Shown in pieces: positions 15,024 through 56,211 of a DNA stretch of 64,000 bases (within the stretch, counting starts at the first letter, position 1; each line of letters opens with the position of its first letter). Made by a program: the position numbers and the translations under genes. The stretch is from positions 9,544-73,543 of the IMG/VR virus record IMGVR_UViG_3300014656_000022; one strand, given 5' to 3'. This DNA is from a virus (lineage: Duplodnaviria > Caudoviricetes). Below the pieces are notes generated by a model. That model saw nothing but the letters and a program-made list of their open reading frames with translations, had not been told where the DNA came from and did no database searches.

Positions 15024-15421
15024 CCTCCACCGCTCAGCATTTTAAAATGATTATGATCTATGTCATTCTCTTCTGCTTGTTTCTTAGAGAAAATCATTTC
15101 CTTTCCAAGGATTTCAACATAGTATACATGTCTGGCACTAACCTTCCCTGTCCAAAATGCTCGACAAAACATTCCTGGTCTCAATTGACCCCATCTTCGA
15201 AAAACCTCATTGAGTTCTGGGACTACTGCGTGCCAAGCATTTTCTCCTCCTAGTAGTTCTTCTTTAGCTCCACCAAGAGGTTTTACTTGTACTTGGTTGT
15301 AATCGTTAACTTTTGCTACTAAACAATGAGTAATTCGTAGACCGATAGGATCTGGTTCTCCAGCTTTTGTGTTAACTGACTGAGAATGCTTCTGTTCAGG
15401 AGTTCTTGCTACGCCACCCAT
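15011..15421 (-). CDS. Small baseplate protein, possibly a spike OB-fold (gpV-N-like)
   Basis: CLVAKVNDYNQVQVKPL...LRPGMFCRAFW pattern; immediately after the hub gene with TAATG coupling. Confidence 0.4.
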   Translation of the reverse strand: MGGVARTPEQKHSQSVNTKAGEPDPIGLRITHCLVAKVNDYNQVQVKPLGGAKEELLGGENAWHAVVPELNEVFRRWGQLRPGMFCRAFWTGKVSARHVYYVEILGKEMIFSKKQAEENDIDHNHFKMLSGGGWPR

Positions 15422-18400: not shown

Positions 18401-21400
18401 TCCGGTTGACGGTTTAAACAATCAAGAGACATATTATGCTTACAGGCTCCAGCAGATGGAGATGCAAGAGGTTGAGCTTGTTTTCTCCCGGCGCCAGTAA
18501 TATTGTAGATATCTCTAGCCAGCTCAATAGCTGGAATTGTAATGGGGAGAAGGTCTCCTAATCCTGTTTGAAGTCTTGCGTAAACCGCAGAAGGGATTAT
18601 CTCTCCATCAAAATCGTTTGGTTGAATCAATCCATTATCTTTCTCTGCCCGATTCTGAAGTTCTAATTCTAAGGCCTTAGTATCTTCTCTTTCCAGTCGT
18701 GCATCTTGTTTGAGCTTCTGGTCAGCTTGCATTAGACCCGTACCCCAAGTCCGAGTTACCACATCCCCCCGAATTCGATTCTTTTTCTGCTGACCAAGAA
18801 TCTTTTCTTCGTAGACACTTTCTAACCAACTCTTAGTTGCTTTGAGTCTCACATCTCCCTGTGATGTCTGAATTGCGTTCTTAGCAGCTTCAATGATGGA
18901 CCCATCTACGATAGACCCTTTTATTTCTGCGGGGTTATAGAGATAGAAATCTGGTTGTATTAGAGCAGCAGCAGATAGATTCCTGAGACCTAAATTCTGC
19001 TTAGCAGCCATCTCTACAAGTGAGTCATTGAGTGTAGGATATTCAGCTTCTATGATATCTAATATCCCGTCCATTGGAAAATCAGGATAGGCATTACCAC
19101 CAGAAGATACACCAAAGTTATTGAGAGCATCTCTTATGTCTTTCATTTGGTCGAGCTGGATTAGACTAGACCTAAGAAGCTGAAGTAGAAAGTTATTAAT
19201 CCAGTCATTCCAGTCAGCAAATGCAGCTGTCAGGAAGTCATATAAAAGAGGAGTATGTTCCTTACGAAAGGTGCTCCTAATTTCCTCTAGAGCCTTAGCT
19301 CTATCTCCGCTTATTGGTCCTGTAGCTTCTACATAGAGGTCAAGAATTTCTGGAGTCTGTCTAGCAGTTTCAAGAAGACCACTATCTCCTAAGAGAGCAC
19401 TATTACCAAAAGCCCCAGGACCATATTCTGCCAGCTCAGCAAAAGCCTTGTCAGACCAGCTGAGTTCGGATTCTCCATTGGATCCCTTCTTTTGAAGAAA
19501 AGCAATATCATCTTGTGTCCCCTTGCTCTGAACAAAGACGTTGTATGTATCATCTTGGAATACATCTACTCCTATTACATCCTTGTTATCTAAGAGAAAA
19601 AGGCTAAATAGTCCTCCTAAAACAGATGAGAACTTATTCCCAGTTATACCTATATTAGTATTGAGTACATTCCATAATTCAGAAAGAGTAGTACCCATTT
19701 TGCTAGCAAGATACATACAGGTCTTCCATAGCATATAATCCTGTTTACTTTGCAATCCGTTGACCTTATAAACATCTGCTTTCTGATTAAAACGAAGTCT
19801 AGAAAACTCAGTGTCTGTACTCAAAAAACTGGGGACATCTGCTTCTATCGACGCTCGCGTTTTTATACTCAATCTTCCGTTCTCGTTTGTAACAGCACTC
19901 TTATCAAACTTGATATAGCTCATTAGCTTCTTAAATAAAAGTCTATGCACATCCCCTTTGCTAGTAATGGACTGTCCAGGAACTAATTGCTCGCGTGTGG
20001 AAGAAGTAACTGGATTATCTATTAGAGTTAAAACAGCAGAATAGGTTCCTGGTTGACCCTTAACTGTATCTATAGAGATATTCTCAAGGATAAACTCTTG
20101 CAGTCCACATGCGTTTATTAAGTTATTTACAACATTTACGTTTCTCAATCCAACAGGGACTCGTCTAAACTTTCTAGCCGTATCCTCATACATAGAATAG
20201 AAGTTAGAAATAGATTTAATTGAACTCTCATGAGTTGTCATCAAAGAGATTGATACAACCCCGTCTATACTCCCAATGTGTTGATATGTAGGATAGGGAT
20301 GACCAAGGAGAGGTATTCTGGCAAGAGTATTATCAAATGAAATTGATATTCCTACTGGAATGAATCCAGCATCTTCCAAATTCAGAGGAACAGTTCTCTT
20401 CATGAGAACTTGGACAGGCTCTGTATGCACTCCTTCTGCAGGTTCTTTGAAAAGAGTATCTATCCCTAGTTTACTTTCTACTATAGTAGGCTTACCAGTA
20501 GAATCCTGTATTGCTATGGGTGACCAGTCTTCACTCTGGTTCATGAGACTATCTAATCCAGCTAATTCCTCCTCCCGCGCAGATAGAAGACCAGTTATAA
20601 CTTTAGAGACTGAATCTGTATTAACATCTTCTCCCATAGATGTAGTTGACCCAAAGTCATCAGCCTTTAGGGGAATACCCTGTTTCTTTGCTTGTTTAGC
20701 TAATTCCTCTGCCATATCTGGAGCTACTCCAGACCATTCTGACCTACCACCTTCAATATCTTCTAATTGGTTGATTAGGGTTCTCAGAGTCTTTACATCT
20801 GCGTCAACCTTCTGATATCTCTTCCTGTCAAAGAGAGCAAATTCAGTTAGAGATAACTCTGTCTTATTAGCTAATTGATAAGTGCGAATATATAGCTCTC
20901 TGTTACCAGACTTCCTTGCTTGCTCAGCCAGATAGAGAGTTCTCCATGCTCTACTATCAGAAGGATCTAAAACAGGAATTGGGCTAAGTAGGTCTCTCTT
21001 GTATAGCCACTGTCTCATATAAGGTTGATAGTTGAACCAAACCGTGTTGAGGGATAATTGAATTATATCTGTGCTATCTCCAACTTTTTGGATTTCCAAT
21101 TGCTGGAGAGCAAGAACCATCTGGGTTTCTTGATTTCCGCCGAGAATAGAATTCCTAAGAAACTGGTTATCTACATACACAAAAGGAGTAACTCTAATTT
21201 GGCTAACAAAATCAGTTAGTTTAGGAAGGTCTTTTTCTACTAGATAAATAACTATATGAACTCTAATCTCAGAGAACCCAGATCGAAGCTTCTGAGACGA
21301 ACGAGTGCGTAGAGTTTGCCAAAAGTTATTATAGCTCTTTCTCTCTATATGTATCTGGTCAGGTGGGACAGTGAATGTTAGATCATTCAGCTTTAGAGTC

Positions 21401-21414
21401 CCTGTATCTGTCAC
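15421..21414 (-). CDS. Baseplate hub-like protein with internal M23 peptidoglycan peptidase, 1997 aa
   Basis: M23 motifs ITSHY, HSGIDIA, VRAAADGEIV, YTVYKHM, IGLVGNTGYSAGAHLHFEIR (about 17800-18330); C-terminal hub-like GSLILMGNPKIRPYDIVYI...VEQVVHRFS; GTG start overlapping upstream TGA. Confidence 0.75.
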   Translation of the reverse strand: MTDTGTLKLNDLTFTVPPDQIHIERKSYNNFWQTLRTRSSQKLRSGFSEIRVHIVIYLVEKDLPKLTDFVSQIRVTPFVYVDNQFLRNSILGGNQETQMVLALQQLEIQKVGDSTDIIQLSLNTVWFNYQPYMRQWLYKRDLLSPIPVLDPSDSRAWRTLYLAEQARKSGNRELYIRTYQLANKTELSLTEFALFDRKRYQKVDADVKTLRTLINQLEDIEGGRSEWSGVAPDMAEELAKQAKKQGIPLKADDFGSTTSMGEDVNTDSVSKVITGLLSAREEELAGLDSLMNQSEDWSPIAIQDSTGKPTIVESKLGIDTLFKEPAEGVHTEPVQVLMKRTVPLNLEDAGFIPVGISISFDNTLARIPLLGHPYPTYQHIGSIDGVVSISLMTTHESSIKSISNFYSMYEDTARKFRRVPVGLRNVNVVNNLINACGLQEFILENISIDTVKGQPGTYSAVLTLIDNPVTSSTREQLVPGQSITSKGDVHRLLFKKLMSYIKFDKSAVTNENGRLSIKTRASIEADVPSFLSTDTEFSRLRFNQKADVYKVNGLQSKQDYMLWKTCMYLASKMGTTLSELWNVLNTNIGITGNKFSSVLGGLFSLFLLDNKDVIGVDVFQDDTYNVFVQSKGTQDDIAFLQKKGSNGESELSWSDKAFAELAEYGPGAFGNSALLGDSGLLETARQTPEILDLYVEATGPISGDRAKALEEIRSTFRKEHTPLLYDFLTAAFADWNDWINNFLLQLLRSSLIQLDQMKDIRDALNNFGVSSGGNAYPDFPMDGILDIIEAEYPTLNDSLVEMAAKQNLGLRNLSAAALIQPDFYLYNPAEIKGSIVDGSIIEAAKNAIQTSQGDVRLKATKSWLESVYEEKILGQQKKNRIRGDVVTRTWGTGLMQADQKLKQDARLEREDTKALELELQNRAEKDNGLIQPNDFDGEIIPSAVYARLQTGLGDLLPITIPAIELARDIYNITGAGRKQAQPLASPSAGACKHNMSLDCLNRQPESYYQPTELVKASEMPIWAWPVDVPRPTSKITSHYKEIRGGISSKPHSGIDIAHSLGAEETKKMQVRAAADGEIVFITKDFKQSEHTYREGDPLFKRNPNDKVGDKIGNKPIETTVEVHIRHPNGYYTVYKHMQWEPYIQRLSLLFHGGELGNESFAGQNPLPISQGEVIGLVGNTGYSAGAHLHFEIRKNNIEYTMDPELALQGFELKSLGPVNDIDPANESLLTRSIDQFEKEMINDQGYSLMRAYPTFKLYFIESDLGERKKYAFDDFYSYSQVVDIQVIQSSKIPADLVMITLTNISGVLSNRKFKGDANQERARDPGGKFAIEDPLKENNIASLMLQPGTQMQLRLGFNNNPQELETVINGVITDVQFSGAEDLVQITCQSFAIELAQNIYGDVKEFGGWYTKSGRTSDILENLIAAPEVAHFGRWELGEGSLGDTFRSLLTSRYTWSKQPQDDNIFAPTGNRGLLGLFDGGSVPFVMYNTTIWDVFQEMTYRHPGWISRPVPYEGEYGPRMTMFFGVPDQFYFARDPTTEEKSEAEQLKEQVANSKDETAKVAAEATDPNKEPSEATKNAVADARGGSAVAILRETDRRAKISQDLVRAESINKELLKIWTERNVRLYAKDRGIIKPFRSYHLASSTCNIIDNRISSTFWNTFNTVTLQYDDDGAEVNEETGQIEFDDAQTFTLMCDAGIPDEEKREIFAQYPNCVGWEMAKRYCTALLKESLKEGYRGSLILMGNPKIRPYDIVYIADEYNDMWGPVEVEQVVHRFSQQHGFVTEIIPAMCIHVNEIVTMATQDVMGLVAEAAMKGINMQSLPGIGATLMGGAGARMALGEVSKNIKGDTLTAGLVTAASHMGDVLSVVTAPIGGMGLSTLSMASSMSDSVDNSVGNPINTHGLLGTFIFRKLTSRSQLAHLFHYSPLVLQGKPLIGGLPTKRNDGSWIQGIGRWFKDANESTPLYLDHFYDTIDPNNWFAPQGSWWASNVEGRVK

Positions 21415-24400
21415 TTGAGTATCTCATTCCCCTTATAGTTATTTAGATTACCTGGTGCCCTACGAATATTTAGATTAACAGAGGAACGACCAGATGTCAT
21501 TCTTCTGATTCGTTCAGAAAAATCAGATGTATTCATGGCATAGTTTCCAGCAGTTCTGACATCTACTTGGACAGAAGGTCTCATTATCCTTGCGCTATTT
21601 TGGTGCAACATAGGAGGAGCGGTTGGTTGACCAAGAGAATGTTCTGGAGCATGTATTATGTCGTCGGGAGTCAAATTAGACTTCTTGTTATTCATTTTGA
21701 TATTAGCTTTTAAACCTGACCCTGGACCAATAGAAGAAGGTGGGCTAGAAAGTGCAGTAGCTATTGCTAGAGACCCTGCAAATCCAAATCCAATAGCCTT
21801 ATGGTGTTTGATGATAGACTCTCCAAACCCTCCTAAGATATTCCTCATTGTATTATAAGCTACACTAGATTTACTCATAGACCCTTCTACTGCCTTAAAG
21901 AAGCTAGGAAGTCTCTGTTTGGTTACTGTAGCTTGACCTCTCAGTAACTTAGCTGCTTCTGATGCCCCGCTGATATCAGCTTGCTTGAGACTTCTGACTA
22001 CATTTCCCCATGTCTCCCCTAGTTCCATTCCTGGGATAGTTCGTCCTACTTTTACTCCACCTAGAGCTTTTTCAATTTCCTTGTAATTCTCTAGGACTAA
22101 ATCTCCTTGAAGCATCTTTTGAGCATGAGGAGCACGCTGAAAGAGGCTCTCAATGGGAGCAATTCCTTGTTCTATATCTCTATTTCTGAGGGATTGAGCT
22201 AAGTCTCCTAGTTGCTCTCTAAATCCTCCAGAAAGAACCTGCTCAGCTCTCAAGTGCTTTGCAGCTATTGGTTCTTGTTCGAGTGTATATAATAATTGTT
22301 GAGCATTAGCCAGTTCTTGGCCTTTGAGATGCTGTAGAACAGCTTGACGCGCTGCAGTAATCTCTGTAGATAAACGTGGAACGAATTCCTGAACAGTCCC
22401 TAACTTAGCGACATCAGCTAACATTTTCTCTTCTATGTTCAGAATGGTCATACCACCCTGACCCTTAGGTTTAAATATCTGAGTCCTAACCTGATTTTGA
22501 ACCCACCTGGTAGTATATTCATCAGCTGTCTGTTGGGTCTGTTTGAATATCTTTTGCTCTAAATCGGGAGATACGAGCTTAACAGCTACTTGGTCTGCAT
22601 CATAGTCTCCAGCCATGTTTACCATGAGGCCCAATTTGATAGCCTTATCTGATAAACCTTGGATTCTGGCATTGACTGGAATCGAAGACACCAGTGCAAC
22701 AGGCTCGTGGAGGCCAGGGATGACCTGTAGACGTGCTGGTTGAAACGAATGGGGGTGGACTATAGGGTGACGCCATCCAAGGCCTCCTACAGGCTTTCCT
22801 TGAAGAAGTTCCTCAGCCATTGTTTCAAAGCCTTTCTGAGTCCCGTACAGCTCTCTTCCTTCTTCTATTAGTTGCTTAGCTATTTCTTCAGAGATTCCAA
22901 TGACATTTGATTCTCTTAGTAAGGAAGCTCCAAGAGCTTCTCCTGGCTTTCCAGCCATTAGAAATCTGGTAGCTAGAAGCTTGTCTCCCTTACCTCCTAG
23001 GAGTCTTCCTATACCCTTTCCAGCAGGTGCAGCATGTTTGACCAGCTTAGATATAGCAGTATTGATTTCATTCCTCATCGCTACAGGAGAAGTTCCTACT
23101 ACATCTGTATACATCCCCGCACCTTTTTGAGCTAAGGACGCATATATATTAGTTAGTTCACTAGCTACTATCTTCCCACCGGCAGTCTTATATGGTCGCA
23201 TTCCCTCCAGATGAGTCACACTTGGAACCCAAATGTCTTTAAACTCTCCTCCTAAACGTAGTGCTCCTCCCTCTGGACCTAGTCCTTCCATCCAGGCCTT
23301 GAATCCAGCTCTTCTGTAGCCTATACCCTTTACATCGAATGAGGATAAGCCAGTAGGGACTTCTCCTGTTTGAAAGGACCTCAGAGATTGCATCAGAGAT
23401 TGGTGTATTGCTAGGCGCTGAGGATTTGTTTGTGCCCCCGTTAGAAGAAGGTCCTTTGCAAGCTCTTCTCCTAGTTGGCCAAAACCTCCTCCTGCAAGCA
23501 TTTCATATGCCCGGGGTTCAATAGAAGCCAACTTCCCTGAACCTAGAAGCTCTTTTGTCCTTCCATAGAATGGTTGAGCCATACCAATAGGTATCCCTGT
23601 TTCCATACCTGTAACAAGAGTACTGGGAAGTCTCGTTCTTCTTAGGAGAGTTTCATATTCTTTACCTTCTAAAGCTTCTGGAACAGCACCAAATATCTTT
23701 CCAAATTCGGCTGGAGAAGGTTCAGCAGATCTAGTCATAGCCATTAGCTGTGTAATGAGATTAACATGACGCAGTGGCCCCTCTCCTGCAGCTCTCTCGA
23801 ATAAGCGCATAGTGTGAACTGGACGCTTCCAGAACATTTCTTGAGCTGGAGTGAGATTCATTTGTTTACTCAAGAAGTTCTCTAGAGCAGTCATCATTTG
23901 CTTGTTATGTAACCCTCTGTTTTTCTTGAGAGTGTCCATATCAGCAACTATTCTAATACCCCGTTCTATTGCTTCGTCTTTCCATTCTGGAATAGTCGCC
24001 AATCCACTTTCTATTGCCCCTTGAGGAACAAAATGAAATCCAGCTCTTAGGTCTCCAAAGAACTTCTCAAATGCTGTCATCTCATGTCTTCTGCGGACAG
24101 AGAGTGTGGCAAACTCTCCCTTACCCTTATCCCAAAAAGGAGTTACTCCCAAGATTTCTTCTTTAAGCGGATCTGGCACATTATATGGAACCCCCTTGGT
24201 AGTCATTCCTAAAAAGGTTCCTGGAGTTAATTTATTCCCTTCTTGAAGCTGTTTGAGAGCTTCCATATTTGCTGTAGCTAAATGAATAGATGCAGTACTC
24301 TGCTGTCCTAGAGCTGCTGTTACATTCTTACTTGCAAGAACTGCTCCATCTCCGATTCCCATTCTCTCCATTTGCATGGCATACTTCTTTTCGCTTATGT

Positions 24401-25850
24401 AGGCTGTCCTCAAGTGAGGAGGCATAGCTTCTTTAGTCCAATGAGCTTCTCTTTCCATCCCCGTAGGAAGATGTCTAGAATAGAATGCAGCTCTATGTTC
24501 TCCCGGAATAAATTTCTCAGACCAAGCATATTTCTTAGCTGCTTCAGCAGCTTCAGGAGTTAACCCCCATTCTCGTAAGCTCTGCTCTACACGTCTGCTT
24601 ACATCTGCTGCTCCTGGAGTTGGCTGCCATCTTCTCATTTGGACTTCTGGGCCCATGACTATACCTTTAGCTATATCTACAGGAGAAGTCCCTGGTTGTA
24701 GACCACCAACTCTCATTGCTTCTAGAAGCTCTTCTCCTACAGCAGGTTCATGTCCGGGTTTGTAAACAAATTTCCCCAATTGGGGAGCTACACTTCGTTT
24801 CATAACAACCTGAACTGCTCCTCCACGAGTCTTCTGATAACTTGCAAGAACTGGATCATAGATGTTAGCTGGAAGGTTAGGCATAGTTTCCAGTTTATGA
24901 AGCCATTCTGTACGAAGAGAACTAATAGCTTGTTGTAAATCCATTCCTCTGAGTCTTCCACTCTTCATTGCAGGAACTATTTGTTCAGCGAATTCACGCA
25001 TGACAAATTCGTGTCTAGTCATCGTGGACAGAGAACGTGCTTCTGGGTCCCAGATAGCCATAGCAGGAGAAATGTACTTAGTACGAAGAGTCTTACCCTC
25101 TAAGAAAACTCCTTCAGATGTAAGAGGAAGCATTAAGCTAGCTCCCTCTTGAGCCCAGTTGAACTTGAGAACTTTATGTCCGGGGAAATCGGGACGTGTA
25201 TACTCCATTACTGTTCCAGTCTTACCTAACTCATTAGCTATATTGTCATATACGGTTCTAATTTCAGAAGGGAGAGCTTCTGTCCCCAGAGGAAGAGCTT
25301 CTGTCCCCAGGAGAGTCCCAGACCATCTTCTCTTTTGAAATGGAGTTAGGACTGGCACCTGTCCTGCAATTCCAAAATGTTTGGTAGATGCAGCTACATT
25401 ACTCTGAAAATGTCTGAGTACCTTCTGAACTCCAAAAGATTGTCCATGAACATGAAGAGCTTTTTGGAGAGATCCTTCTATATCTGCACCGGCAGATCTC
25501 ATCTTCTGAGTTACAGAGGCTAACTTCTTGGCAGTAATAGGATCAGCAAATCTTATTGCCTGGTCCCATGCTCCTTGAACGAGCTTAGGAATCTCCCCGG
25601 AAGGAACTCTTTCTTGTGTCAGAGATGTACTGAGGCCCCTTATATAATCTAGATGTCCTTGAATCGGAAGATCTGGAACAGCTGTGATTCCAGCTTGTCT
25701 TGCAGCTATAGCTATAGGGTTCTCAGCAACAGCAGATACACCAGTAAATGGTCTGGACTTAGCAAACTTATATCCTGCATATGCAGTAGTTCCTGCTATA
25801 GGTGCTCCTATAATAGCAGCTGATAGAAAACTATTATTTTTCTCTGCCAT
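21411..25850 (-). CDS. Putative single-chain two-barrel (DPBB) RNA polymerase, probably virion-associated, 1479 aa
   Basis: beta'-like series IGISEEIAKQL...KPVGGLGWRHPIVH...NMAGDYDADQVAV (DYDAD at 22593-22607); beta-like series HLRTAY...GIGDGAVLAS...SVRRRHEMTAFEKFFG...GIRIVAD, in the correct order. Confidence 0.75.
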   Translation of the reverse strand: MAEKNNSFLSAAIIGAPIAGTTAYAGYKFAKSRPFTGVSAVAENPIAIAARQAGITAVPDLPIQGHLDYIRGLSTSLTQERVPSGEIPKLVQGAWDQAIRFADPITAKKLASVTQKMRSAGADIEGSLQKALHVHGQSFGVQKVLRHFQSNVAASTKHFGIAGQVPVLTPFQKRRWSGTLLGTEALPLGTEALPSEIRTVYDNIANELGKTGTVMEYTRPDFPGHKVLKFNWAQEGASLMLPLTSEGVFLEGKTLRTKYISPAMAIWDPEARSLSTMTRHEFVMREFAEQIVPAMKSGRLRGMDLQQAISSLRTEWLHKLETMPNLPANIYDPVLASYQKTRGGAVQVVMKRSVAPQLGKFVYKPGHEPAVGEELLEAMRVGGLQPGTSPVDIAKGIVMGPEVQMRRWQPTPGAADVSRRVEQSLREWGLTPEAAEAAKKYAWSEKFIPGEHRAAFYSRHLPTGMEREAHWTKEAMPPHLRTAYISEKKYAMQMERMGIGDGAVLASKNVTAALGQQSTASIHLATANMEALKQLQEGNKLTPGTFLGMTTKGVPYNVPDPLKEEILGVTPFWDKGKGEFATLSVRRRHEMTAFEKFFGDLRAGFHFVPQGAIESGLATIPEWKDEAIERGIRIVADMDTLKKNRGLHNKQMMTALENFLSKQMNLTPAQEMFWKRPVHTMRLFERAAGEGPLRHVNLITQLMAMTRSAEPSPAEFGKIFGAVPEALEGKEYETLLRRTRLPSTLVTGMETGIPIGMAQPFYGRTKELLGSGKLASIEPRAYEMLAGGGFGQLGEELAKDLLLTGAQTNPQRLAIHQSLMQSLRSFQTGEVPTGLSSFDVKGIGYRRAGFKAWMEGLGPEGGALRLGGEFKDIWVPSVTHLEGMRPYKTAGGKIVASELTNIYASLAQKGAGMYTDVVGTSPVAMRNEINTAISKLVKHAAPAGKGIGRLLGGKGDKLLATRFLMAGKPGEALGASLLRESNVIGISEEIAKQLIEEGRELYGTQKGFETMAEELLQGKPVGGLGWRHPIVHPHSFQPARLQVIPGLHEPVALVSSIPVNARIQGLSDKAIKLGLMVNMAGDYDADQVAVKLVSPDLEQKIFKQTQQTADEYTTRWVQNQVRTQIFKPKGQGGMTILNIEEKMLADVAKLGTVQEFVPRLSTEITAARQAVLQHLKGQELANAQQLLYTLEQEPIAAKHLRAEQVLSGGFREQLGDLAQSLRNRDIEQGIAPIESLFQRAPHAQKMLQGDLVLENYKEIEKALGGVKVGRTIPGMELGETWGNVVRSLKQADISGASEAAKLLRGQATVTKQRLPSFFKAVEGSMSKSSVAYNTMRNILGGFGESIIKHHKAIGFGFAGSLAIATALSSPPSSIGPGSGLKANIKMNNKKSNLTPDDIIHAPEHSLGQPTAPPMLHQNSARIMRPSVQVDVRTAGNYAMNTSDFSERIRRMTSGRSSVNLNIRRAPGNLNNYKGNEILK
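25273..25310. repeat. Tandem duplication, 21-nt period, encoding LGTEALP twice
   Basis: agagcttctgtccccag occurs exactly at 25273-25289 and 25294-25310. Confidence 0.95.
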
Positions 25851-28800
25851 AATCTTCCTGATGATCTATATTAACTACTAGACCACCATTTCCCCATGTG
25901 GTCCGTGTAAAGATAGATGCTTTCATTTGATTAGCCATAAGTAACTCATCTATTCTACTTCTCATTTCATCTGCTGATAAGTCTGGAGGGTTTAATACTT
26001 CTTCTACAGCTTCTTCGTTAATATAAGGCTTGTTCATGAGAGTTTGAGCTTGAGAAGGCCATAGATTATAATCATGTTGGTCCTCTCCAAGACTTTGAAC
26101 TACTTTGAGCTTTAAATCTTCGAGATCAACAGATGGATGCCAACCAACAAAGTCCATTCCTGGAAGAGGTATATTTGGTAGAATCTTTGTCCTTCTATAC
26201 CAATCTCCATACTTTTCGTCAGACAATCTGGTTTCTATGAACTCCCCCATTTCCTTCTTGGATGAAGGGTATCCTTCTACTTTAGCTTCAGAGTATATCT
26301 GCTCTACATATTCGCTTGCTTCACTAAGCTGGTCTTCCGTTAATAAATTAGCTTTCTCTGCTCTTCTTACGTCATCTGCAAAGGCTAATTGCCATCTAGC
26401 TATGTATAGTGCTTTCTCGTTCTCTGGGACCATTTGAAGGATACGAGCCCTTTCTTCTCCTGATTCAGCTTCTGCGAAAGCATTAAAGTAATCTCTTTCC
26501 CGCCGTGGGAGAGATCTAAAGATAGAACTATAGTTCCTCGTATATGGATTGATCCCAAATAGAGTTTCATCCTTCTTAGATTCAAATTCTTTTGTAGCTT
26601 TTGTATCTTCTGCCAGACGGGCAATATTAGCTAGGCGTGAGTATTTGACATATTTGAGAACATCAAAATACTCCTCTAATTCTCTCCTACTTTGAATGTG
26701 TCCAGGAACTCCTTTGAATCCAAGAGATGCAGCAGTTAGATAAGCAGATGGTCTAACGAAGTGAGTGTATGGATGTTGCCAGAATGCACTTTGTGTCCCA
26801 TATAATTGCTCTCTTTCATAGCTTTCAATAGCTGTTCTCTCATGAACTAACTTTGCACCAGGAGAAACAGGAGTCATCTGATCCAACGCTGTCTCTGCAT
26901 TGTGAGACAACAGTTCCCAGTATCCTCCAAATAGCTTTTTAAAGAGTCCTGGTTCTTCTACTCCAGCTTTCTTTATTTCATTGAGCTGGGTAAGAAGACT
27001 GCTTGATTCCTCGCTAGATCTTTTAATTCCCCCCGTTGGGGAAAGATATTGGTATTCTCTAAATTCCTTTCTCTGTTTCTTAGCCTTTATCTGTTCTAGG
27101 GTCTGTTGAAAGAGATTCTCTTCATAATCTGTCCAGTCTCTTCTCTTTCTAGCAGCTCTAACCATAGATAGGTGTTTTCCATACTTTTCACTATATGGAG
27201 CTACATCAGCTAGGATTTTCCAACGATGAATTAATGGATATTTGCTTGGTTCAATCCCCTCTAACTCTGGATAACGTGCCTCATATCCGACTCCTGGAAG
27301 CCTTAACTCACCTTCGGGGACCTTGGCCCAAGGATCTCCTGTTCTAAAGTCAGGCGACTTATCTCCAGCTCCTGGAAGCCATTCTGCGGCCATATTAGGA
27401 ATTGGGTTATATAAAGGAATTTGGCGACGACGGTGGGGGAAGAAACGTCTCCAAGCTTCTGTCGCACCAAGGCCACCACCTATCTCTAGGTCCCAATACT
27501 CTCTTTCATATCCTGCAATTCTACGCGCACTCTCTAATTGCATTTCTTGGTCAAACAAGTCAGGGGTGCCAGTTAGAGCTTCTTTAATAGAAGTTGCAGT
27601 AAAGCCAAAAAGTCCTGCCATTTCTGTCATTCGATATACCTGTTCTCCAATAGTTCCCTTAATTCCAAATGGAGTAACAGGAGGAGGACCTGGTTGTTCT
27701 CCTATTTCTGTAGCAATACGTTGTCCATATCTGGGAGATGGGGCTATTACTCCGCCTTCCGTTCTCCAATCTTCTTCGTGCATATACACAGGAGGTTTGA
27801 TTACTCTACCAAGAGTATTGGCTAAGATAGGTCCAATGAGCGGTACGTCTTCAAATGGCGAGCTGGAAACTGGATATGGCCGATCTTGATAGTGTCTCTG
27901 TTCTAATTCATAGGTAAATTCTTTCTTCCAGAATTTTTCTAGAGGCGAAATAGTTCCTTCTTCTCGTCCCCAGATACCTTTCTCTCTGGCCCTCATGAGC
28001 ATTCTGGGAAACCAATGTGGACGAAAATAAGTTTCATTACTGTTGTGAAGCGTAAAACCTGGACTAAGAAAGCTTTCATCTTCCTCTACCTGAAAGTCAT
28101 AAACAATGCCTTCATAATGTTCTTGAAAGATAGAATGTATTGAAATTGCAAATCCACCATCTACTTCAGTATATCCATACTGTCGCTCTGGCAGTTTGGT
28201 TATTTCTCCAACTTTCAGTAACTTAAGTGGTATTACCTGATTAAGTAAGTAAGTACTTGTCTTTGGTATTCTAAGCTCTTGGACTAAATACCCTTTTTGG
28301 GTTTTAGTTATTTTTCCAAGAGCAGCAAATATGTGCAACCTTGATAATAAAAGTTGCATCTGTCTCAGTAGAGGACAAGGATGCATCCCTATTCGAATTG
28401 CATTATCTCTAATAGATCCATCCCCTTTAATAACACCTTCCAGGAAACCAAGGATAAATCCGTTCGGAGCATCAAAAATTTCTGGATTTAGACGTTTTGT
28501 ACCTTCTTTTGCTAAACCGGGTACAAGCCACTTTATTAGTTTTGCTACCAAAGAGCTATACAGTATAACTTCAATACCATTCTTACTAGTAGAATGTGTG
28601 TAGATTTTGAGACCAAATAGTCTCTTTGCTAAATCTTGTAAAGTATCGACATATTCTTTTTCTTCCCGATGTAATGCAAATGTGATTCGTCTACTAGTTA
28701 CACTTCCTTCAGCAGCATAAAATCCACAAAATAAACCAAGGGAATAGTCCAGTGACAATATAGGCAAAAGATTATCTGGGACAAGTCTTTTACGAAATAA

Positions 28801-30981
28801 AAGCCCTTGTTTTTTATGCTTACGAATATCTGCTAGCCTATATCTAATTTGTGAATACGTCAGATTATATTTTTCTTGTAAATATAACAGTTTCTCTTTT
28901 CTAGATTTGCTTTTAGGGGAAAACTGACCCCACTCTAGAATCTCTAAATCAGCTTCTAGACCTTTGCAGTCCTTAAAAGGCCTAAACCATCTACCATTTA
29001 AAAACGTAAAACCAGAAATACGTTCTAGATCGACTGTCTTAGTAATCTCACGAGGAGAATAATATGGCATAAATAGTCTGTATCTTCCATCTTTCTTTAT
29101 AGACGAGCTTGGCATCCACATTTTTTGTGGCTTGGTTTTGTCTAGCTTAAAATAATATGGACAATAGACAACTAGTAACTGATGGTTTCCGGTAATACTT
29201 GTTAATGCTTCCTGTCCATAACTTGTACTAAATTTGTAAACTTGTTCGTTTACTTCTCTAGTAAAAACCTTAAGAACACGGACAGATCTCCCCTTCTTGT
29301 TTAAGAGTTTATGTCCAGGTCGTATTAATTCAGCGTTTTCCAAAGTGCCATCTGATAATATTAAACAAGCCTGTTTTGTTAGACATCCTTCAAACGCAGA
29401 TCGTCCCGCTTCCCACCATCTACCACGCCTAACAGCAATTTCTTGCCTACCTGAATAAATATCTTCCAATTCTTCTGGACTCTTCTCAGGTATTAATGCG
29501 CCTGGTAGAAATGGGGCAACTAGAGCTAATCCTGCTAGTGCTCCCCCAATTGCAGCTAGCTTAGTTGGGCCTAATTTCCACCCCAATTTTCTAAAAGCTA
29601 ATTGCTCTCCTCCTTCAACTATTGGCTCAAATAATCTTCTCCAAGCTTTTCCTAGAGTATCAGAACGATAGTAGAGACTCTCTGGACCTGCTAGAGCCAT
29701 CTTTCTCATAGTCCTGGAAGCTATATTCTTTCCAGTTCCAAATTCTCTTGCAGATAGCTCAGCTACTGTTAGGGCTTCATGGGCTGACATACCTCTAGCC
29801 TGAAGAGTTGTCATCTGTACGAGCTTGGCTCCATATGCAATTCCTCCAGCTCCAAGGGCTCCCATTAGAGGAAAAGCTAGCAGCTTTTGAAGAGAAGTAC
29901 TACCTGGAGCTACTTCTTCTTGAAACTCTCTATATCTCTGTAGACCTGATATTTGAGCTATACGTGAAGCAGCTATATTAGCTTTCACTCCAGCTGTAGC
30001 TATTCCAGCAGTAATCCCCTCATCCAGAATAGTGCCAGAGAGAGTGTCAGACCTTCTTACGGCCCAATCCAACATCTGGTAGCCCATATAAGCAGCAGGT
30101 AAGGCAATGCCAAACTTGCCCACCATTCGGGCAAACATTTCTCCACCAGTGCCAGATTTAACAGCTAATTTAGGAAGGTACTTTGCTCCCGGAAGGCCCT
30201 CTATAAGTCCATAGGGCATTTCCAGTAGACGGTTGAAACGACCTACAAGCTCAGTTCCTAAGGCTCCAGCCCATCTACCTGTATAACCTAACCTCGTCTG
30301 AGCACCAATAATCTGAGAAGGTAATCCTTCGATGAGAGGATTTAGAATATTGGGCTTATCGAAGAAAGGTTGTCTAAAGGTAAAGATATGCTGTGGAGAA
30401 GGAATTTTGGCTCCTAATCCTACTGTCCACCCAGCTCCTACCCATGAACTGGTAGTTAAGGATTTGCCTAAGGGGTCCCATACAGAAAGAGGAGTTCTGA
30501 TAGCACTAGCATAACGTAGAGCTACTTCTTCTCCCTGGCCCCAAAAGAGTCTTCCTCCTCTTAGGGTAACTCCTTCTCTTTGTAGTCTAGCTTTACTAAG
30601 TAAATCTAAAGAATGAATATAATCTGTAAGATGGACATTCTTCCTAAACATAGAGGGAGAAACGTGAGTCCCTCTTTGAACTGCACTTTCAAACTGAGAA
30701 AAGAAGTTTGAAAGCTGAAAGGTTCTAAGAACGCCTCCTGGAGAATAAGATTCTATTCCTCTGAGACTAGCTACATACTTATCCCAGACTCTCCCACTCT
30801 TCGTAGGAATCCATCCAGCGGCTAGAACTCCTCCTGTAATCAGTCCAGCTGTGAGAATATTGTTTGTAGATTCTTCGTAAAAGTTACGAGGCTGTCCTGT
30901 TAGGTATGATTGCTGAGTTTGAGTAGAAAGGGAAGGAGAATAGTAGCTCCTTAATTGATTAGAAGATAGAAAAGTAGGCAT
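25834..30981 (-). CDS. Tape-measure-like virion protein with intein (1715 aa precursor, about 1267 aa spliced)
   Basis: First long gene after two tail chaperones; several hydrophobic Gly/Ala segments; contains an intein. Confidence 0.55.
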   Translation of the reverse strand: MPTFLSSNQLRSYYSPSLSTQTQQSYLTGQPRNFYEESTNNILTAGLITGGVLAAGWIPTKSGRVWDKYVASLRGIESYSPGGVLRTFQLSNFFSQFESAVQRGTHVSPSMFRKNVHLTDYIHSLDLLSKARLQREGVTLRGGRLFWGQGEEVALRYASAIRTPLSVWDPLGKSLTTSSWVGAGWTVGLGAKIPSPQHIFTFRQPFFDKPNILNPLIEGLPSQIIGAQTRLGYTGRWAGALGTELVGRFNRLLEMPYGLIEGLPGAKYLPKLAVKSGTGGEMFARMVGKFGIALPAAYMGYQMLDWAVRRSDTLSGTILDEGITAGIATAGVKANIAASRIAQISGLQRYREFQEEVAPGSTSLQKLLAFPLMGALGAGGIAYGAKLVQMTTLQARGMSAHEALTVAELSAREFGTGKNIASRTMRKMALAGPESLYYRSDTLGKAWRRLFEPIVEGGEQLAFRKLGWKLGPTKLAAIGGALAGLALVAPFLPGALIPEKSPEELEDIYSGRQEIAVRRGRWWEAGRSAFEGCLTKQACLILSDGTLENAELIRPGHKLLNKKGRSVRVLKVFTREVNEQVYKFSTSYGQEALTSITGNHQLLVVYCPYYFKLDKTKPQKMWMPSSSIKKDGRYRLFMPYYSPREITKTVDLERISGFTFLNGRWFRPFKDCKGLEADLEILEWGQFSPKSKSRKEKLLYLQEKYNLTYSQIRYRLADIRKHKKQGLLFRKRLVPDNLLPILSLDYSLGLFCGFYAAEGSVTSRRITFALHREEKEYVDTLQDLAKRLFGLKIYTHSTSKNGIEVILYSSLVAKLIKWLVPGLAKEGTKRLNPEIFDAPNGFILGFLEGVIKGDGSIRDNAIRIGMHPCPLLRQMQLLLSRLHIFAALGKITKTQKGYLVQELRIPKTSTYLLNQVIPLKLLKVGEITKLPERQYGYTEVDGGFAISIHSIFQEHYEGIVYDFQVEEDESFLSPGFTLHNSNETYFRPHWFPRMLMRAREKGIWGREEGTISPLEKFWKKEFTYELEQRHYQDRPYPVSSSPFEDVPLIGPILANTLGRVIKPPVYMHEEDWRTEGGVIAPSPRYGQRIATEIGEQPGPPPVTPFGIKGTIGEQVYRMTEMAGLFGFTATSIKEALTGTPDLFDQEMQLESARRIAGYEREYWDLEIGGGLGATEAWRRFFPHRRRQIPLYNPIPNMAAEWLPGAGDKSPDFRTGDPWAKVPEGELRLPGVGYEARYPELEGIEPSKYPLIHRWKILADVAPYSEKYGKHLSMVRAARKRRDWTDYEENLFQQTLEQIKAKKQRKEFREYQYLSPTGGIKRSSEESSSLLTQLNEIKKAGVEEPGLFKKLFGGYWELLSHNAETALDQMTPVSPGAKLVHERTAIESYEREQLYGTQSAFWQHPYTHFVRPSAYLTAASLGFKGVPGHIQSRRELEEYFDVLKYVKYSRLANIARLAEDTKATKEFESKKDETLFGINPYTRNYSSIFRSLPRRERDYFNAFAEAESGEERARILQMVPENEKALYIARWQLAFADDVRRAEKANLLTEDQLSEASEYVEQIYSEAKVEGYPSSKKEMGEFIETRLSDEKYGDWYRRTKILPNIPLPGMDFVGWHPSVDLEDLKLKVVQSLGEDQHDYNLWPSQAQTLMNKPYINEEAVEEVLNPPDLSADEMRSRIDELLMANQMKASIFTRTTWGNGGLVVNIDHQEDYGREK
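28042..29385 (-). mobile_element. Intein with LAGLIDADG homing endonuclease (448 aa) in the tape-measure-like gene
   Basis: AFEG|CLTKQA ... VYDFQVEEDESFLSPGFTLHN|SNETYF; endonuclease motifs FCGFYAAEG and FLEGVIKGDG. Confidence 0.92.
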
Positions 30982-56000: not shown

Positions 56001-56211
56001 AATCAAGTGTCTCTGCAGCCCATCTAACAGGATCTAATACAGATAAAGCTGTATCCTGTTCTGAAGTTTCTCCAAATAAGGAAAGCTGTTCATAGTCTGG
56101 TATGCCAGTACATTTGATTTTAAACTTTTGGCCTGCAACTAATTTGTGTTTGCTTTTATATCCTTTAATACAATTGAGACAGGTCTTGTCACACTGGGTA
56201 AGGTCTAACAC
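53080..56211 (-). CDS. terL: Terminase large subunit with intein
   Basis: Walker A AGRQIGKS, Walker B LLVFDEAD, motif MSSTP, nuclease IGVDWN and DHTLDG. Confidence 0.95.
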   Translation of the reverse strand: MLDLTQCDKTCLNCIKGYKSKHKLVAGQKFKIKCTGIPDYEQLSLFGETSEQDTALSVLDPVRWAAETLDWHCLDPDGEIWKRKNPEEYNEWVGNHPGESILGQSRYHRPYQALMTRCQARRKVFRAGRQIGKSEALAVAILYNMFTKPGKTQDDGFDVIVIAPYQSQVDLVFKRLEQLIKSNPGTTNALSRYVKAPMYTMELNNKSIIKGFSCVAGTQIVTSRGLVNIEDVTLKDRVLSKQEDNNLTFLPVTYVYAPNYKDVYRVVLNSGHEVTVSEDHPFWTKNQKWIALKELTVGDHVAIANDFKFPPSSAQPDRLAYLLGLILGDGNITKKTLADGGPRFTSKNPLIQKQFEDTLAELKIGYRSQIHSVTGSKEYTLRKRMNVPHRRCQDKPYTELTALIYKYGLNDKTSINKFIPQVLINESSSIRLGLLKGLLETDGFLQSDGTAGFCSISKELVFGVRNLLNSFGIKAHIRCKKQAGKDTPIATNQRVIHSRYDLYKLCIKSKAYTRKLLDLVDLSAKGICYEKCLEACKNTRDVDVADISYNKIRSIEPIGKATTYDLSVGDGTNNFVANGIVLHNTAGTKSGGNAAAVRGQHADLLVFDEADYLAVADMDAALSIITNYPNASVWMSSTPSGKREKFFQTCFSTLWKEFYFPSSVNPMWNTEMEQMYKEQLTELGYIHEALAEFGEQEQGVFQNAYIQHAKSPYRYGSIPYTQGWKYTIGVDWNDTKIGTSIVVLGFNPVRNIFQVVDRCIVSKVGWTQLAACQKIAELNRIWRPIAIYIDSGYGSTQWEVLRKYGYDSAADGNKGRNHPDARLKDIVHKYEFGGTIETRDLFTKQPIKKPAKAWLVESTVRRFESGDIKFSDSDEELERQLSGYIIQRKTTAGVPVYGALDESIGDHTLDGLMLSVVAFTMELTPFGKPKYSADIAFSGQFGEKSLPDQDISLTMKSDERQKPNSKPEMSRTVGIEKTSLLGVNQEMPGAHLVRETSVGLWYWPGFGHDQPRPKIRSLAQAERDAQMKFGLRPRIKKPQRKNI
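54460..55575 (-). mobile_element. Intein with LAGLIDADG homing endonuclease (about 372 aa) in terL
   Basis: KGF|SCVAGTQIV ... TYDLSVGDGTNNFVANGIVLHN|TAGTK; motifs LLGLILGDG and LLKGLLETDG; the N-junction could be Ser 55575 or Cys 55572. Confidence 0.92.

What the first reader, a model, noticed from the sequence alone, without database searches (positions are those of the whole stretch)
21411..25850. Divergent single-chain two-barrel RNA polymerase encoded inside the tail module
Seen: a 1479-aa ORF with two ordered motif series. The beta-like series is HLRTAY..GIGD(501)GAVLAS..SVRRRHEMTAFEK(596)FFG..GIRIVAD, versus NLLVAY..FEDAILIS..VAQKRKIQVGDKMAG..PVDIVLN in bacterial beta. The beta'-like series is GKGIGRLLGGK..IGISEEIAKQL..KPVGGLGWR(1027)HPIVH..NMAGD(1082)YDADQVAV, versus GRFRQNLLGKR..CGLPKKMALEL..HPVLLNRAPTLH..YNADFDGDQMAV. 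Established: the DxDxD triad (E. coli beta' D460/462/464), beta' R425, beta D814 and K1065 form the two-barrel active site, and single-chain phage versions exist (SPbeta YonO; crAss-like phi14:2 gp66, which is virion-packaged). Inference: a late-expressed RNAP, co-transcribed between tape measure and hub, is loaded into the virion (perhaps the tail) and ejected to transcribe early genes. The second beta lysine (K1073 equivalent) is not obviously conserved (DLRAG).
Basis: partly seen in the sequence, partly recalled or inferred. Interest (0 to 1): 0.95.

Follow-up and report, generated by a model that had tools for sequence, protein, structure and literature searches.

The report
Tail-module single-chain RNA polymerase of myoviruses
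A 1479-residue gene among the contractile-tail genes of an uncultured large phage is predicted with high confidence to fold as a one-chain version of the cell's RNA polymerase core with its catalytic residues intact. The phage probably carries it in the particle and injects it to start its own transcription, which has so far been shown only for a few unrelated phages.

Summary

- **Homologues:** Pfam, PHROGs, PDB sequences and cultured-phage tblastn find nothing. An exhaustive HMMER search finds 166 unannotated clusters of the same length.
- **Conserved residues (117 sequences):** D1082/D1084/D1086 and P1029 are 117/117, R1027 115/117, K596 112/117. Position 602 is K or R in 115/117, so the "missing" second lysine is conserved.
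- **Fold:** an AlphaFold model of residues 440-1240 (pLDDT 87.6) matches QDE-1 (Z 14.2), P74-26 gp62 (11.4), P23-45 gp96 (10.1) and cellular beta'. Its first half matches beta subunits.
- **Context:** all 13 IMG/VR relatives keep the order sheath, tubes, giant protein, this gene, M23/hub protein, baseplate. The neighbours are homologous to Acinetobacter phage ME3 gp035/037 and Bacillus phage 0305phi8-36 gp145/147. ME3 gp036 shares the fold and motifs. The C-terminal tail matches that of 0305phi8-36 gp146, a virion protein called the tape measure.

Verdict: a two-barrel RNA polymerase is close to certain from fold and residues. Virion delivery is inferred and untested. It is a new variant of the P23-45 theme, here in contractile-tailed phages. 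This scan holds similar notes from at least 46 other genomes.

The parts
21411..25850 (-). Whole ORF, 1479 aa plus stop (P0001): single-chain two-barrel RNA-polymerase-like protein
   Evidence: 166 homologous clusters
25773..25829 (-). N-terminal Gly/Ala-rich, moderately hydrophobic segment (aa 8-26)
   Evidence: Kyte-Doolittle 19-residue mean 1.29, below the usual transmembrane threshold. The position is conserved in the family: 35 of 115 members reach 1.5 at the N end and none in the middle
25359..25703 (-). N-terminal helical bundle (aa 50-164)
   Evidence: N-terminal model, pLDDT about 90; only generic helical-bundle matches
24567..25271 (-). Alpha/beta domain (aa 194-428) weakly resembling N-terminal parts of RNAP beta subunits; ends in the conserved RRPxQxxR motif
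   Evidence: VIA Z 6.0-6.8 to AR9 nvRNAP 7s00_c, vaccinia Rpo132 6rfl_B and Xanthomonas beta 6j9e_C. This is at noise level for any single row, but beta subunits recur among the matches. Conservation
23931..24413 (-). Beta-like double-psi barrel (aa about 480-640) with E/D501-G502, K596 and K/R602, followed by LKKN..LH..QM
   Evidence: Strands in the model. Model residues 27-333 match the beta subunits of ASFV, AR9, PhiKZ, Pol I and Xanthomonas at Z 8.1-9.5. Column counts
22971..23930 (-). Long, mostly helical connector (aa 641-960) with invariant F720 (FGAVPE), E778-P779-R780 and P876. Its last third aligns with beta' N-terminal regions
   Evidence: beta'-type alignments start at model residue 388, which is aa 827
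22566..22970 (-). Beta'-like double-psi barrel (aa 961-1095) with R1027-H-P
   Evidence: Foldseek top 50 are all bacterial beta' chains, E 1e-6 to 2e-5. VIA matches to DPBB domains at model 520-660
22593..22607 (-). Catalytic-type loop D1082-Y-D1084-A-D1086
   Evidence: 117/117 for each Asp. The loop lies between a short helix and the strand QVAVKL, as in beta' NADFDGDQMAV
22461..22520 (-). Candidate bridge helix (aa 1111-1130; R1122, Q1124, K1127 conserved)
   Evidence: Helix 672-686 of the model; conservation. The assignment is an inference
22254..22280 (-). Invariant E1191..P-I-S/A-x-K1198-H1199 motif, candidate trigger-loop or NTP-contact element
   Evidence: E1191 and K1198 117/117, H1199 107/117. 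The role is inferred
21741..21797 (-). C-terminal Gly/Ala-rich hydrophobic segment (aa 1352-1370)
   Evidence: Kyte-Doolittle mean 1.33; family median 1.48; 55 of 115 members reach 1.5
21414..21713 (-). Conserved C-terminal tail (aa about 1380-1479), homologous to the last ~90 residues of phage 0305phi8-36 gp146
   Evidence: hmmsearch E 8e-9. A profile search of the whole 0305phi8-36 genome gives this as its single hit, E 8.9e-9. hhalign probability 62%
25834..30981 (-). Upstream giant protein (1715 aa, intein-bearing, with hydrophobic segments). Homologue of ME3 gp035 and of 0305phi8-36 gp145 (a virion protein). Its end overlaps the start of the polymerase ORF by 17 nt
15421..21414 (-). Downstream giant protein (1997 aa) with an M23 peptidase. 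Homologue of the baseplate hub proteins ME3 gp037 and 0305phi8-36 gp147. Its GTG start overlaps the polymerase stop (GTGA)

Best explanation
P0001 is a catalytically competent, single-chain, two-barrel (double-psi beta-barrel) nucleotide polymerase, most likely a DNA-dependent RNA polymerase. It defines a large unannotated family confined to a lineage of large contractile-tailed phages related to Acinetobacter phage ME3 and Bacillus phage 0305phi8-36.

**Architecture, from N to C terminus**
- a hydrophobic segment
- a helical bundle
- a beta-N-terminal-like domain
- the beta-like barrel, supplying K596 and K/R602
- a 320-residue conserved helical connector
- the beta'-like barrel, supplying R1027 and the D1082/D1084/D1086 metal triad
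- bridge-helix-like and trigger-like elements
- a second hydrophobic segment
- a conserved C-terminal tail

**Shown here**
- the fold
- the colinear order of the two barrels
- invariance of the catalytic-type residues
- fixed synteny in the tail operon
- homology of the tail to the C-terminus of a virion protein

**Inferred**
- The gene is made late with the tail proteins.
- The protein is built into the tail or baseplate through its C-terminal tail, occupying or sharing the tape-measure slot.
- It is expelled ahead of the DNA on sheath contraction.
- Its hydrophobic segments and the neighbouring giant protein hold it at the membrane.
- It transcribes the first genes of the entering genome without the host polymerase, as shown for the tape-measure-fused polymerase gp96 of Thermus phage P23-45.
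For: **Fold**
- The model of aa 440-1240 has pLDDT 87.6 and pTM 0.85.
- A search that does not depend on Foldseek, against 48,161 PDB representatives, gives QDE-1 7y7p_A at Z 14.2 (318 residues, rmsd 4.3, spanning model 36-790). It also gives RDR2 at 11.6, P74-26 gp62 at 11.4 and P23-45 gp96 8h2m at 10.1 (282 residues, 16% identity, spanning 28-796).
- The same search finds beta'-type subunits on model 388-801 and beta-type subunits on model 27-333.
- The Foldseek top 50 are all bacterial beta' chains.

**Residues**
- In 117 sequences of about 25% mutual identity, D1082/D1084/D1086, P1029, E1191 and K1198 are 117/117.
- R1027 is 115, K596 is 112, position 602 is K/R in 115, K643 is 115 and Q651 is 112.
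- R1027-x-P lies 52 residues before DxDxD. This meets the [RK]xPx{20,100}DxDxD filter used in the survey of PMC10770324.

**Tail association**
- Gene order is identical in 13 of 13 IMG/VR relatives.
- The start overlaps the upstream gene by 17 nt and the stop overlaps the downstream start as GTGA.
- The flanking genes are homologous to 0305phi8-36 gp145 and gp147 and to ME3 gp035 and gp037. The 0305phi8-36 record marks gp145 and gp146 as virion proteins found by mass spectrometry.
- The C-terminal tail is homologous to that of gp146. The last 60 residues are the only part of that slot conserved across the 0305phi8-36 lineage (PMC2147016).

**Cultured relative**
- ME3 gp036 (1603 aa, A0A172Q021) matches the model in BFVD at E 2e-7, TMq 0.37.
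- It carries K-F-F..G-x-K, R-E-P..G..S.Q and GGDHDQD in the same order.

**Precedent:** P23-45 gp96 (PMC10770324).
Against: - No experiment or proteome places this family in a virion.
- 0305phi8-36 gp146, the link to virions, shares only the C-terminal tail and has no DxDxD.
- The polymerase core is a compact folded unit of about 1000 residues with a long structured connector. This is unlike the flat, clamp-less gp96, whose shape was proposed to allow passage through the tail. How it would travel through a tail tube is therefore unexplained.
- The terminal hydrophobic segments of the window protein score below the usual transmembrane threshold.
Convergence is inferred from single rigid superpositions that span both barrels.
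- Template and product (DNA or RNA) cannot be read from the sequence. [quoted passage not shown]
Confidence: 0.6

Rival explanations
1. It is an active two-barrel RNA polymerase but is not packaged. It is simply encoded in the tail operon and works inside the infected cell, for example on late genes, like the non-virion polymerases gp64 of P23-45 or YonO.
For: Nothing here shows virion presence directly. No other phage polymerase was found in a complete 188,653-bp relative: one copy of this family and no PF00623 or PF05183 match (positive control for PF05183). If the phage has only one polymerase, that enzyme might be needed intracellularly.
Against: The position between two virion or hub proteins is strictly conserved in 13/13 relatives, with overlapping stop and start codons. 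The hydrophobic segments at both ends and the C-terminal tail shared with virion protein gp146 have no obvious role in a cytoplasmic enzyme. A polymerase made only with late tail genes could not start the infection.
Confidence: 0.15
2. It is the tape-measure-slot or ejection protein of this lineage, and its polymerase domain serves mainly another purpose than gene expression. It could be a transcription-driven motor that pulls the long genome in, a primer-making enzyme for replication, or an RNA-dependent activity.
For: It is the positional counterpart of 0305phi8-36 gp146, called the tape measure from tail length, and shares its C-terminus (PMC2147016). [quoted passage not shown] Archaeal DNA polymerase D also matches, but weakly (Z 6.6).
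Against: Residues 190-1240 are globular with mixed alpha/beta structure at high confidence, not an extended helical ruler. The upstream 1715-aa protein, which follows the counterparts of the putative 0305phi8-36 tail-chaperone genes orf143/144 and has stronger hydrophobic segments, is at least as good a ruler candidate. Hardies et al. note that polymerase-driven entry would be slow for genomes of this size (PMC2147016).
Confidence: 0.15
3. It is a structural tail protein that descends from a polymerase but no longer catalyses anything.
For: Its counterpart in 0305phi8-36 (gp146) has no DxDxD. That phage carries a separate QDE-1-type polymerase (orf99), which shows the slot can be filled by a non-catalytic protein.
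Against: The Asp triad, the R-x-P motif, the two basic residues and several further polar residues are invariant or nearly so across 117 sequences that are otherwise only about 25% identical. That pattern is typical of an active enzyme.
Confidence: 0.05

Closest known systems
Thermus phage P23-45 gp96 (also P74-26, G20c, TSP4): virion two-barrel RNA polymerase fused to the tail tape measure protein (PMC10770324; PDB 8h2m, 8h2n)
   Same: Both are single-chain two-barrel polymerases encoded in the tail module, in or next to the tape-measure slot. The fold match is Z 10.1 over 282 residues spanning both barrels. Both have the [RK]xP...DxDxD signature. In both systems hydrophobic segments and a metallopeptidase belong to the same module.
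   Different: - gp96 is the N-terminal 1100 residues of a 5002-residue tape measure of a non-contractile tail. Here the polymerase is a separate 1479-aa ORF in a contractile-tail operon, and the M23 peptidase lies on the next gene.
- gp96 is flat, with a short disordered connector of about 67 residues. Here the connector is about 320 conserved, structured residues, partly like the beta' N-terminus.
- No sequence similarity is detectable.
QDE-1 / RDR2 / YonO-like single-subunit two-barrel polymerases (Pfam PF05183), including 0305phi8-36 orf99
   Same: This is the best structural match: QDE-1 at Z 14.2 and RDR2 at Z 11.6, with one superposition covering both barrels. Both are one polypeptide with the beta-like barrel before the beta'-like barrel.
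   Different: PF05183 does not match the protein or any of five related phage records, although it finds 0305phi8-36 orf99 at E 1e-20. Those enzymes are not encoded in tail modules and lack the terminal hydrophobic segments and the tape-measure-type C-terminal tail.
Acinetobacter phage vB_AbaM_ME3 gp036 (YP_009595868.1, annotated 'hypothetical protein')
   Same: It occupies the same slot between homologues of the two flanking giant proteins. Its predicted structure in BFVD matches this model at E 2e-7, TMq 0.37. It has the same order of K-F-F..G-x-K, R-x-P..G..S.Q and G-D-x-D-x-D motifs.
   Different: Sequence-profile similarity is not significant on its own (hhalign probability 4.9%; hmmsearch E 0.039 among ME3 ORFs). 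It is 124 residues longer. No function has been reported for it in the papers searched.
crAss-like phage phi14:2 gp66, virion-packaged two-barrel RNA polymerase (PDB 6vr4)
   Same: It is a virion-delivered, single-chain two-barrel polymerase that is part of a block of large virion proteins.
   Different: The structural match is only weak (Z 6.1). gp66 belongs to a podovirus-like phage and is packaged as head cargo, which I state from my own knowledge. There is no sequence similarity.
Bacillus phage 0305phi8-36 gp146, 'hypothetical tape measure protein', virion protein by mass spectrometry
   Same: It occupies the same slot and has a homologous C-terminal tail (E 8.9e-9 in a genome-wide search).
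   Different: It is 2537 aa, has no DxDxD, and matches no other part of the family profile.

Membership tests
Two-barrel (double-psi beta-barrel) RNA polymerase superfamily | Two DPBB domains, the beta-like one before the beta'-like one, facing each other | tested here: met
   Model pLDDT 87.6. Beta subunits match model 27-333 and beta' subunits match model 388-801. Single superpositions on QDE-1, gp62 and gp96 span both barrels. The Foldseek top 50 are all beta' chains.
Two-barrel (double-psi beta-barrel) RNA polymerase superfamily | Invariant DxDxD metal-binding loop in the beta'-like barrel | tested here: met
   D1082, D1084 and D1086 are each 117/117. The motif is present in essentially all 150 listed homologues that cover the region.
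Two-barrel (double-psi beta-barrel) RNA polymerase superfamily | Two conserved basic residues in the beta-like barrel | tested here: met
   K596 is 112/117. Position 602 is K in 110 and R in 5 of 117, and the window protein has R.
Two-barrel (double-psi beta-barrel) RNA polymerase superfamily | [RK]xP 20-100 residues before DxDxD (the filter used in PMC10770324 Supplementary Data 4) | tested here: met
   R1027-H-P1029 lies 52 residues before D1082. R is 115/117 and P is 117/117.
Two-barrel (double-psi beta-barrel) RNA polymerase superfamily | Bridge helix and trigger loop after the beta'-like barrel | tested here: inconclusive
   Conserved helices follow the barrel (R1122, Q1124, K1127; E1191, K1198, H1199), and the beta' alignments run to the end of the model. 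No residue-level superposition was available.
Two-barrel (double-psi beta-barrel) RNA polymerase superfamily | Template-dependent RNA synthesis | not testable with these tools
   Needs purified protein.
Tape-measure-fused virion RNAP of the P23-45 gp96 type | Polymerase and tape measure in one polypeptide | tested here: inconclusive
   It is a separate 1479-aa ORF without a long helical ruler. Its C-terminal tail is nevertheless that of the tape-measure-slot protein gp146 of 0305phi8-36.
Tape-measure-fused virion RNAP of the P23-45 gp96 type | Clamp-less flat architecture with a short connector between the barrels | tested here: not met
   The connector is about 320 residues, well folded and conserved. 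gp96 has about 67 disordered residues there.
Tape-measure-fused virion RNAP of the P23-45 gp96 type | Presence in the virion and transcription of pre-early genes | not testable with these tools
   Only indirect evidence: synteny and a shared tail with a virion protein.
QDE-1 / YonO-like RdRP family (Pfam PF05183) | Match to the family profile | tested here: not met
   No Pfam match at E up to 1. No match in five related records. The positive control, 0305phi8-36 orf99, matches at E 1e-20. The structural likeness is high (Z 14.2).
Phage tail tape measure protein | Long, extended alpha-helical protein between the tail chaperones and the hub | tested here: not met
   Residues 190-1240 are globular with mixed alpha/beta structure at high confidence. 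No tape-measure PHROG or Pfam match. Only the slot and the C-terminal tail are shared.

The most novel reading that the evidence does not exclude
A whole, widespread lineage of large contractile-tailed phages (166 clusters at 50% identity, including the cultured Acinetobacter phage ME3) keeps a complete cellular-type RNA polymerase in the tape-measure slot of the tail. The first protein through the contracted tail would then be a polymerase, anchored at the entry pore by its hydrophobic ends and the neighbouring giant protein. It would transcribe, and perhaps help pull in, the leading end of the genome. That would extend the P23-45 principle from one group of thermophilic siphoviruses to myoviruses. 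It would also raise the question of how a folded unit of about 1000 residues is stored in, and passes through, a tail tube.
Probability: 0.45. Interest if true: 0.85.

Novelty: new variant of a known kind. Interest (0 to 1): 0.72.

Why it matters
Virion-delivered polymerases free a phage from the host's transcription machinery at the most vulnerable moment of infection. Two-barrel versions have been shown experimentally for phiKZ/AR9-like jumbo phages (multisubunit enzymes), a crAss-like phage and P23-45. This family would add a large, environmentally widespread group of contractile-tailed phages.

It offers a cultured handle (ME3 gp036, currently annotated 'hypothetical protein'). It also gives a function to a gene that Pfam and PHROGs leave unmatched and that is annotated only as hypothetical in the one source and the one cultured-phage record seen here. 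It makes testable how a large enzyme is stored in and released from a contractile tail.

For the evolution of RNA polymerases, it is a new deep branch of the single-chain clade. Its fold is closest to the eukaryotic RNAi polymerases, yet its connector has beta'-N-terminal-like elements.

Tried and rejected
- **Sequence-level searches that found nothing for P0001:** Pfam at E up to 1, PHROGs, phmmer against PDB sequences, a 117-sequence profile against PDB sequences (only a weak EF-hand-like chance match at E 0.0056), and tblastn against 50,697 cultured-phage records. The ESM Atlas gave only an unnamed cluster at 0.88.
- **Word-indexed protein search:** it found only two homologues. The exhaustive HMMER search was needed.
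- **Pattern scan of 185,579 species genomes:** no relatives, so no prophage copy or host clue.
- **Search for a second polymerase in four relatives, one of them complete, and in the window's contig:**
  - the family profile finds one copy each
  - PF00623 finds none, with the control working
  - PF05183 finds none, with the control working
  - PF00940 finds none, but its control did not ring, so that result is uninformative
- **A 758-aa ORF (3210-5486) and its 761-aa relative carrying DxDxD:** considered as a non-virion polymerase and rejected. The motif is at different, unconserved places and the protein has no polymerase-like match.
- **ME3 798-aa ORF (224453-226849):** examined as a possible identity of the second ME3 BFVD hit, A0A172Q0S6. 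It has no DxDxD and no relative in this lineage. Left open.
- **hhalign of the family against ME3 gp036 and 0305phi8-36 gp146:** probabilities 4.9% and 62%. The ME3 link therefore rests on the fold match and the motifs.
- **Complex prediction:** hub residues 1240-1800 with the C-terminal tail (aa 1375-1479) gave no verdict (score 0.02). This is no evidence either way.
- **Supplements of PMC10770324:** searched for the family's motifs and for ME3 and 0305phi8-36, with no occurrences. The alignment file (Supplementary Data 3) is not held.

Full report
**Observation.** The minus-strand ORF 21411-25850 encodes 1479 residues. The start codon follows an AGGAAG and overlaps the end of the upstream 1715-aa ORF by 17 nt. 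The TGA stop overlaps the GTG start of the downstream 1997-aa ORF as GTGA. The three giant genes therefore form a tightly coupled block.

**Surroundings.** The window is part of a 73.5-kb IMG/VR viral contig, estimated 39% complete. All genes run on one strand in this order:
- terminase, portal and major head protein
- sheath (36184-38061)
- tube and two tube paralogues
- two small genes
- the 1715-aa protein, which carries a LAGLIDADG intein
- the target ORF
- a 1997-aa protein with an M23 peptidase and giant-'endolysin'/hub PHROG matches
- small genes
- baseplate wedge

It is a contractile-tail module.

**Homologues.** Pfam, PHROGs, PDB sequences and tblastn against cultured phages give nothing for the target. 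The word-indexed search found two relatives. An exhaustive HMMER search with residues 440-1240 found 166 clusters at 50% identity. Of these, 109 score below 1e-30, and almost all are 1430-1600 residues long. The library carries no names.

In an alignment of 117 sequences that are about 25% identical to the query, conservation is as follows:

| Residue or position | Conservation (of 117) |
|---|---|
| G548, R780, P876, P1029, D1082, D1084, D1086, E1191, K1198 | 117 (invariant) |
| R1027, K643 | 115 each |
| K596, Q651 | 112 each |
| Position 602 | K in 110, R in 5 |
| Position 501 | E or D in 94 |
| G502 | 116 |

R1027-x-P lies 52 residues before DxDxD. This satisfies the [RK]xPx{20,100}DxDxD filter used in the published survey of viral two-barrel polymerases.

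**Structure.** AlphaFold2 on residues 440-1240 with 52 aligned sequences gave pLDDT 87.6 and pTM 0.85. The Foldseek top 50 PDB matches are all bacterial RNA polymerase beta' chains, at E 1e-6 to 2e-5. The search of 48,161 PDB representatives that does not depend on Foldseek gave the following:

| Match | Z | Notes |
|---|---|---|
| QDE-1 | 14.2 | 318 residues, rmsd 4.3, model 36-790 |
| Plant RDR2 | 11.6 | |
| P74-26 gp62 (non-virion polymerase) | 11.4 | |
| Pol I largest subunit | 10.7 | |
| Archaeal A' | 10.3 | |
| P23-45 gp96 (virion polymerase) | 10.1 | 282 residues, 16% identity, model 28-796 |

Beta-type subunits (ASFV, AR9, PhiKZ, Pol I, Xanthomonas; Z 8.1-9.5) align to model 27-333. 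Beta'-type subunits align to model 388-801. Isolated DPBB domains align to 520-660.

Single rigid superpositions cover both barrels, so the mutual arrangement of the barrels resembles that of known single-chain enzymes. I could not obtain coordinates to measure the Asp-Lys distance.

Secondary structure places DYDAD in the loop before the strand QVAVKL, and RHP at the end of a strand. This matches NADFDGDQMAV and NRAPTLH of beta' (the beta' comparison is from established knowledge).

A second model, of residues 31-470, has pLDDT 82.9. It shows a helical bundle and then an alpha/beta domain whose best matches include N-terminal parts of beta subunits at Z 6-6.8. That is suggestive only.

Crassvirus gp66 (Z 6.1) and archaeal PolD (Z 6.6) match weakly.

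**Synteny and cultured relatives.** All 13 IMG/VR loci found with the family keep the same order from sheath to baseplate wedge. One of these contigs is a complete 188,653-bp genome with terminal repeats.

The sheath and hub proteins point to Acinetobacter phage ME3, Bacillus phage 0305phi8-36, Moorella phage MTATph1 and related Bacillus jumbo phages as the nearest cultured relatives. In ME3 the corresponding trio is gp035, gp036 and gp037. In 0305phi8-36 it is gp145, gp146 and gp147. The flanking proteins are clear homologues, at E 4e-52 and 7e-37 to ME3 and 2e-23 and 3e-17 to 0305phi8-36.

The middle gene has diverged much further.
- **ME3 gp036** (1603 aa, 'hypothetical protein') is not significant by profile alone. 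Its BFVD model (A0A172Q021, stored in two halves that sum to 1603 residues) matches my model at E 2e-7 and TMq 0.37. It also carries K-F-F..G-x-K, R-E-P..G..S.Q and GGDHDQD in the family's order.
- **0305phi8-36 gp146** (2537 aa) has no DxDxD. A profile search of its whole genome gives one hit, its last ~90 residues against the family's C-terminal tail, at E 8.9e-9.

Hardies et al. assigned the tape-measure role to orf146 from tail length. They noted that only the last 60 residues of this slot are conserved in the lineage (PMC2147016). The GenBank record marks gp145 and gp146 as virion proteins found by mass spectrometry.

That phage has a separate QDE-1-type polymerase, orf99 (PF05183 at E 1e-20). 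The lineage studied here has none detectable.

**Ends of the protein.** The two most hydrophobic 19-residue windows of the protein are residues 8-26 (1.29) and 1352-1370 (1.33). Both are below the usual transmembrane threshold. In 115 full-length relatives, 35 N-terminal and 55 C-terminal segments reach 1.5, but no internal segment does. These are position-conserved, moderately hydrophobic segments, not confident membrane helices. The upstream giant protein has stronger ones, up to 1.94.

**Mechanism.** What is shown is a polymerase fold with intact catalytic-type residues under strong selection, fixed in a tail operon, and carrying the C-terminal tail of a tape-measure-slot virion protein.

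What is inferred is incorporation into the tail or baseplate, ejection on contraction, and transcription of the first-entering genes. This follows the demonstrated case of P23-45 gp96, which is fused to the tape measure and transcribes pre-early genes (PMC10770324).

The main difficulty is geometry. Unlike the flat, clamp-less gp96, this enzyme has a 320-residue structured connector, and so it is bulky.

**Prior knowledge.** The literature searches found the P23-45 work, the crAss gp66 work, the jumbo-phage multisubunit enzymes and the 0305phi8-36 orf99 annotation. None describes this tail-module family or a function for ME3 gp036. ME3 and 0305phi8-36 are absent from the list of viruses with two polymerases in PMC10770324.

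Within this scan, 55 notes in at least 46 genomes describe similar tail-module polymerase candidates. They are unverified AI notes, not independent evidence. They do show that the pattern recurs.

**Verdict.** Virion delivery remains inferred. The finding is a new variant of a known kind.

Noticed in passing
window 25834-30981 (-), 33102-35444 (-), 46422-49991 (-), 53080-56211 (-): Structural genes of this phage seem unusually rich in inteins. The 1715-aa giant protein has LAGLIDADG_3 and Intein_splicing matches. The 780-aa tube paralogue, the 1189-aa portal and the 1043-aa terminase are oversized and hit unrelated PHROGs (helicase, thymidylate synthase, primase, terminase) in their middles, as intein-bearing proteins do. 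The DNA polymerase III alpha of a complete relative also carries one.
   Followed up: partly
L015:9173-13984 (+) = Acinetobacter phage vB_AbaM_ME3 gp036, YP_009595868.1: This cultured-phage 'hypothetical protein' appears to be a distant member of the same polymerase family. It has a BFVD fold match, plus R-E-P..G..S.Q and GGDHDQD at residue 1217. It is the obvious experimental model.
   Followed up: partly
BFVD entries A0A172Q0S6 (ME3, 798 aa), A0A7R7G2L5, A0A8S5SD80 ('Minor tail protein', Siphoviridae sp.), A0A075BUT7 (Microcystis phage MaMV-DC): Further viral proteins match the polymerase model over 490-1065 alignment columns. One is annotated as a minor tail protein of a siphovirus. A second ME3 protein also matches. 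This hints at more tail-associated or paired polymerases. The identity of the ME3 798-aa entry could not be settled.
   Followed up: partly
L016:13624-21237 (+) = Bacillus phage 0305phi8-36 gp146: The protein long called the tape measure of 0305phi8-36 shares only its last ~90 residues with the polymerase family and lacks DxDxD. Whether it is a decayed polymerase or an unrelated protein with the same hub-docking tail is open.
   Followed up: partly
window 58072-61506 (-): A 1144-aa ORF upstream of the terminase has no Pfam or PHROG match. Another first-stage note proposes exonuclease and peptidase motifs there. I did not examine this.
   Followed up: no
P0001 aa about 1270-1340 (window about 21830-22040): The family profile gives a weak EF-hand/calmodulin-like match in the C-terminal helical region (E 0.0056 against PDB sequences). 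It is probably chance.
   Followed up: no
P0001 aa 418-428, 641-652, 720-725, 777-780: Several strongly conserved motifs lie outside the two barrels and have no assigned role: RRPxQxxR, LKKNxxLHxxQM, FGAVPE and IEPR. The second follows the beta-like barrel where beta has its PSRMNxGQ motif, a comparison made from memory.
   Followed up: partly
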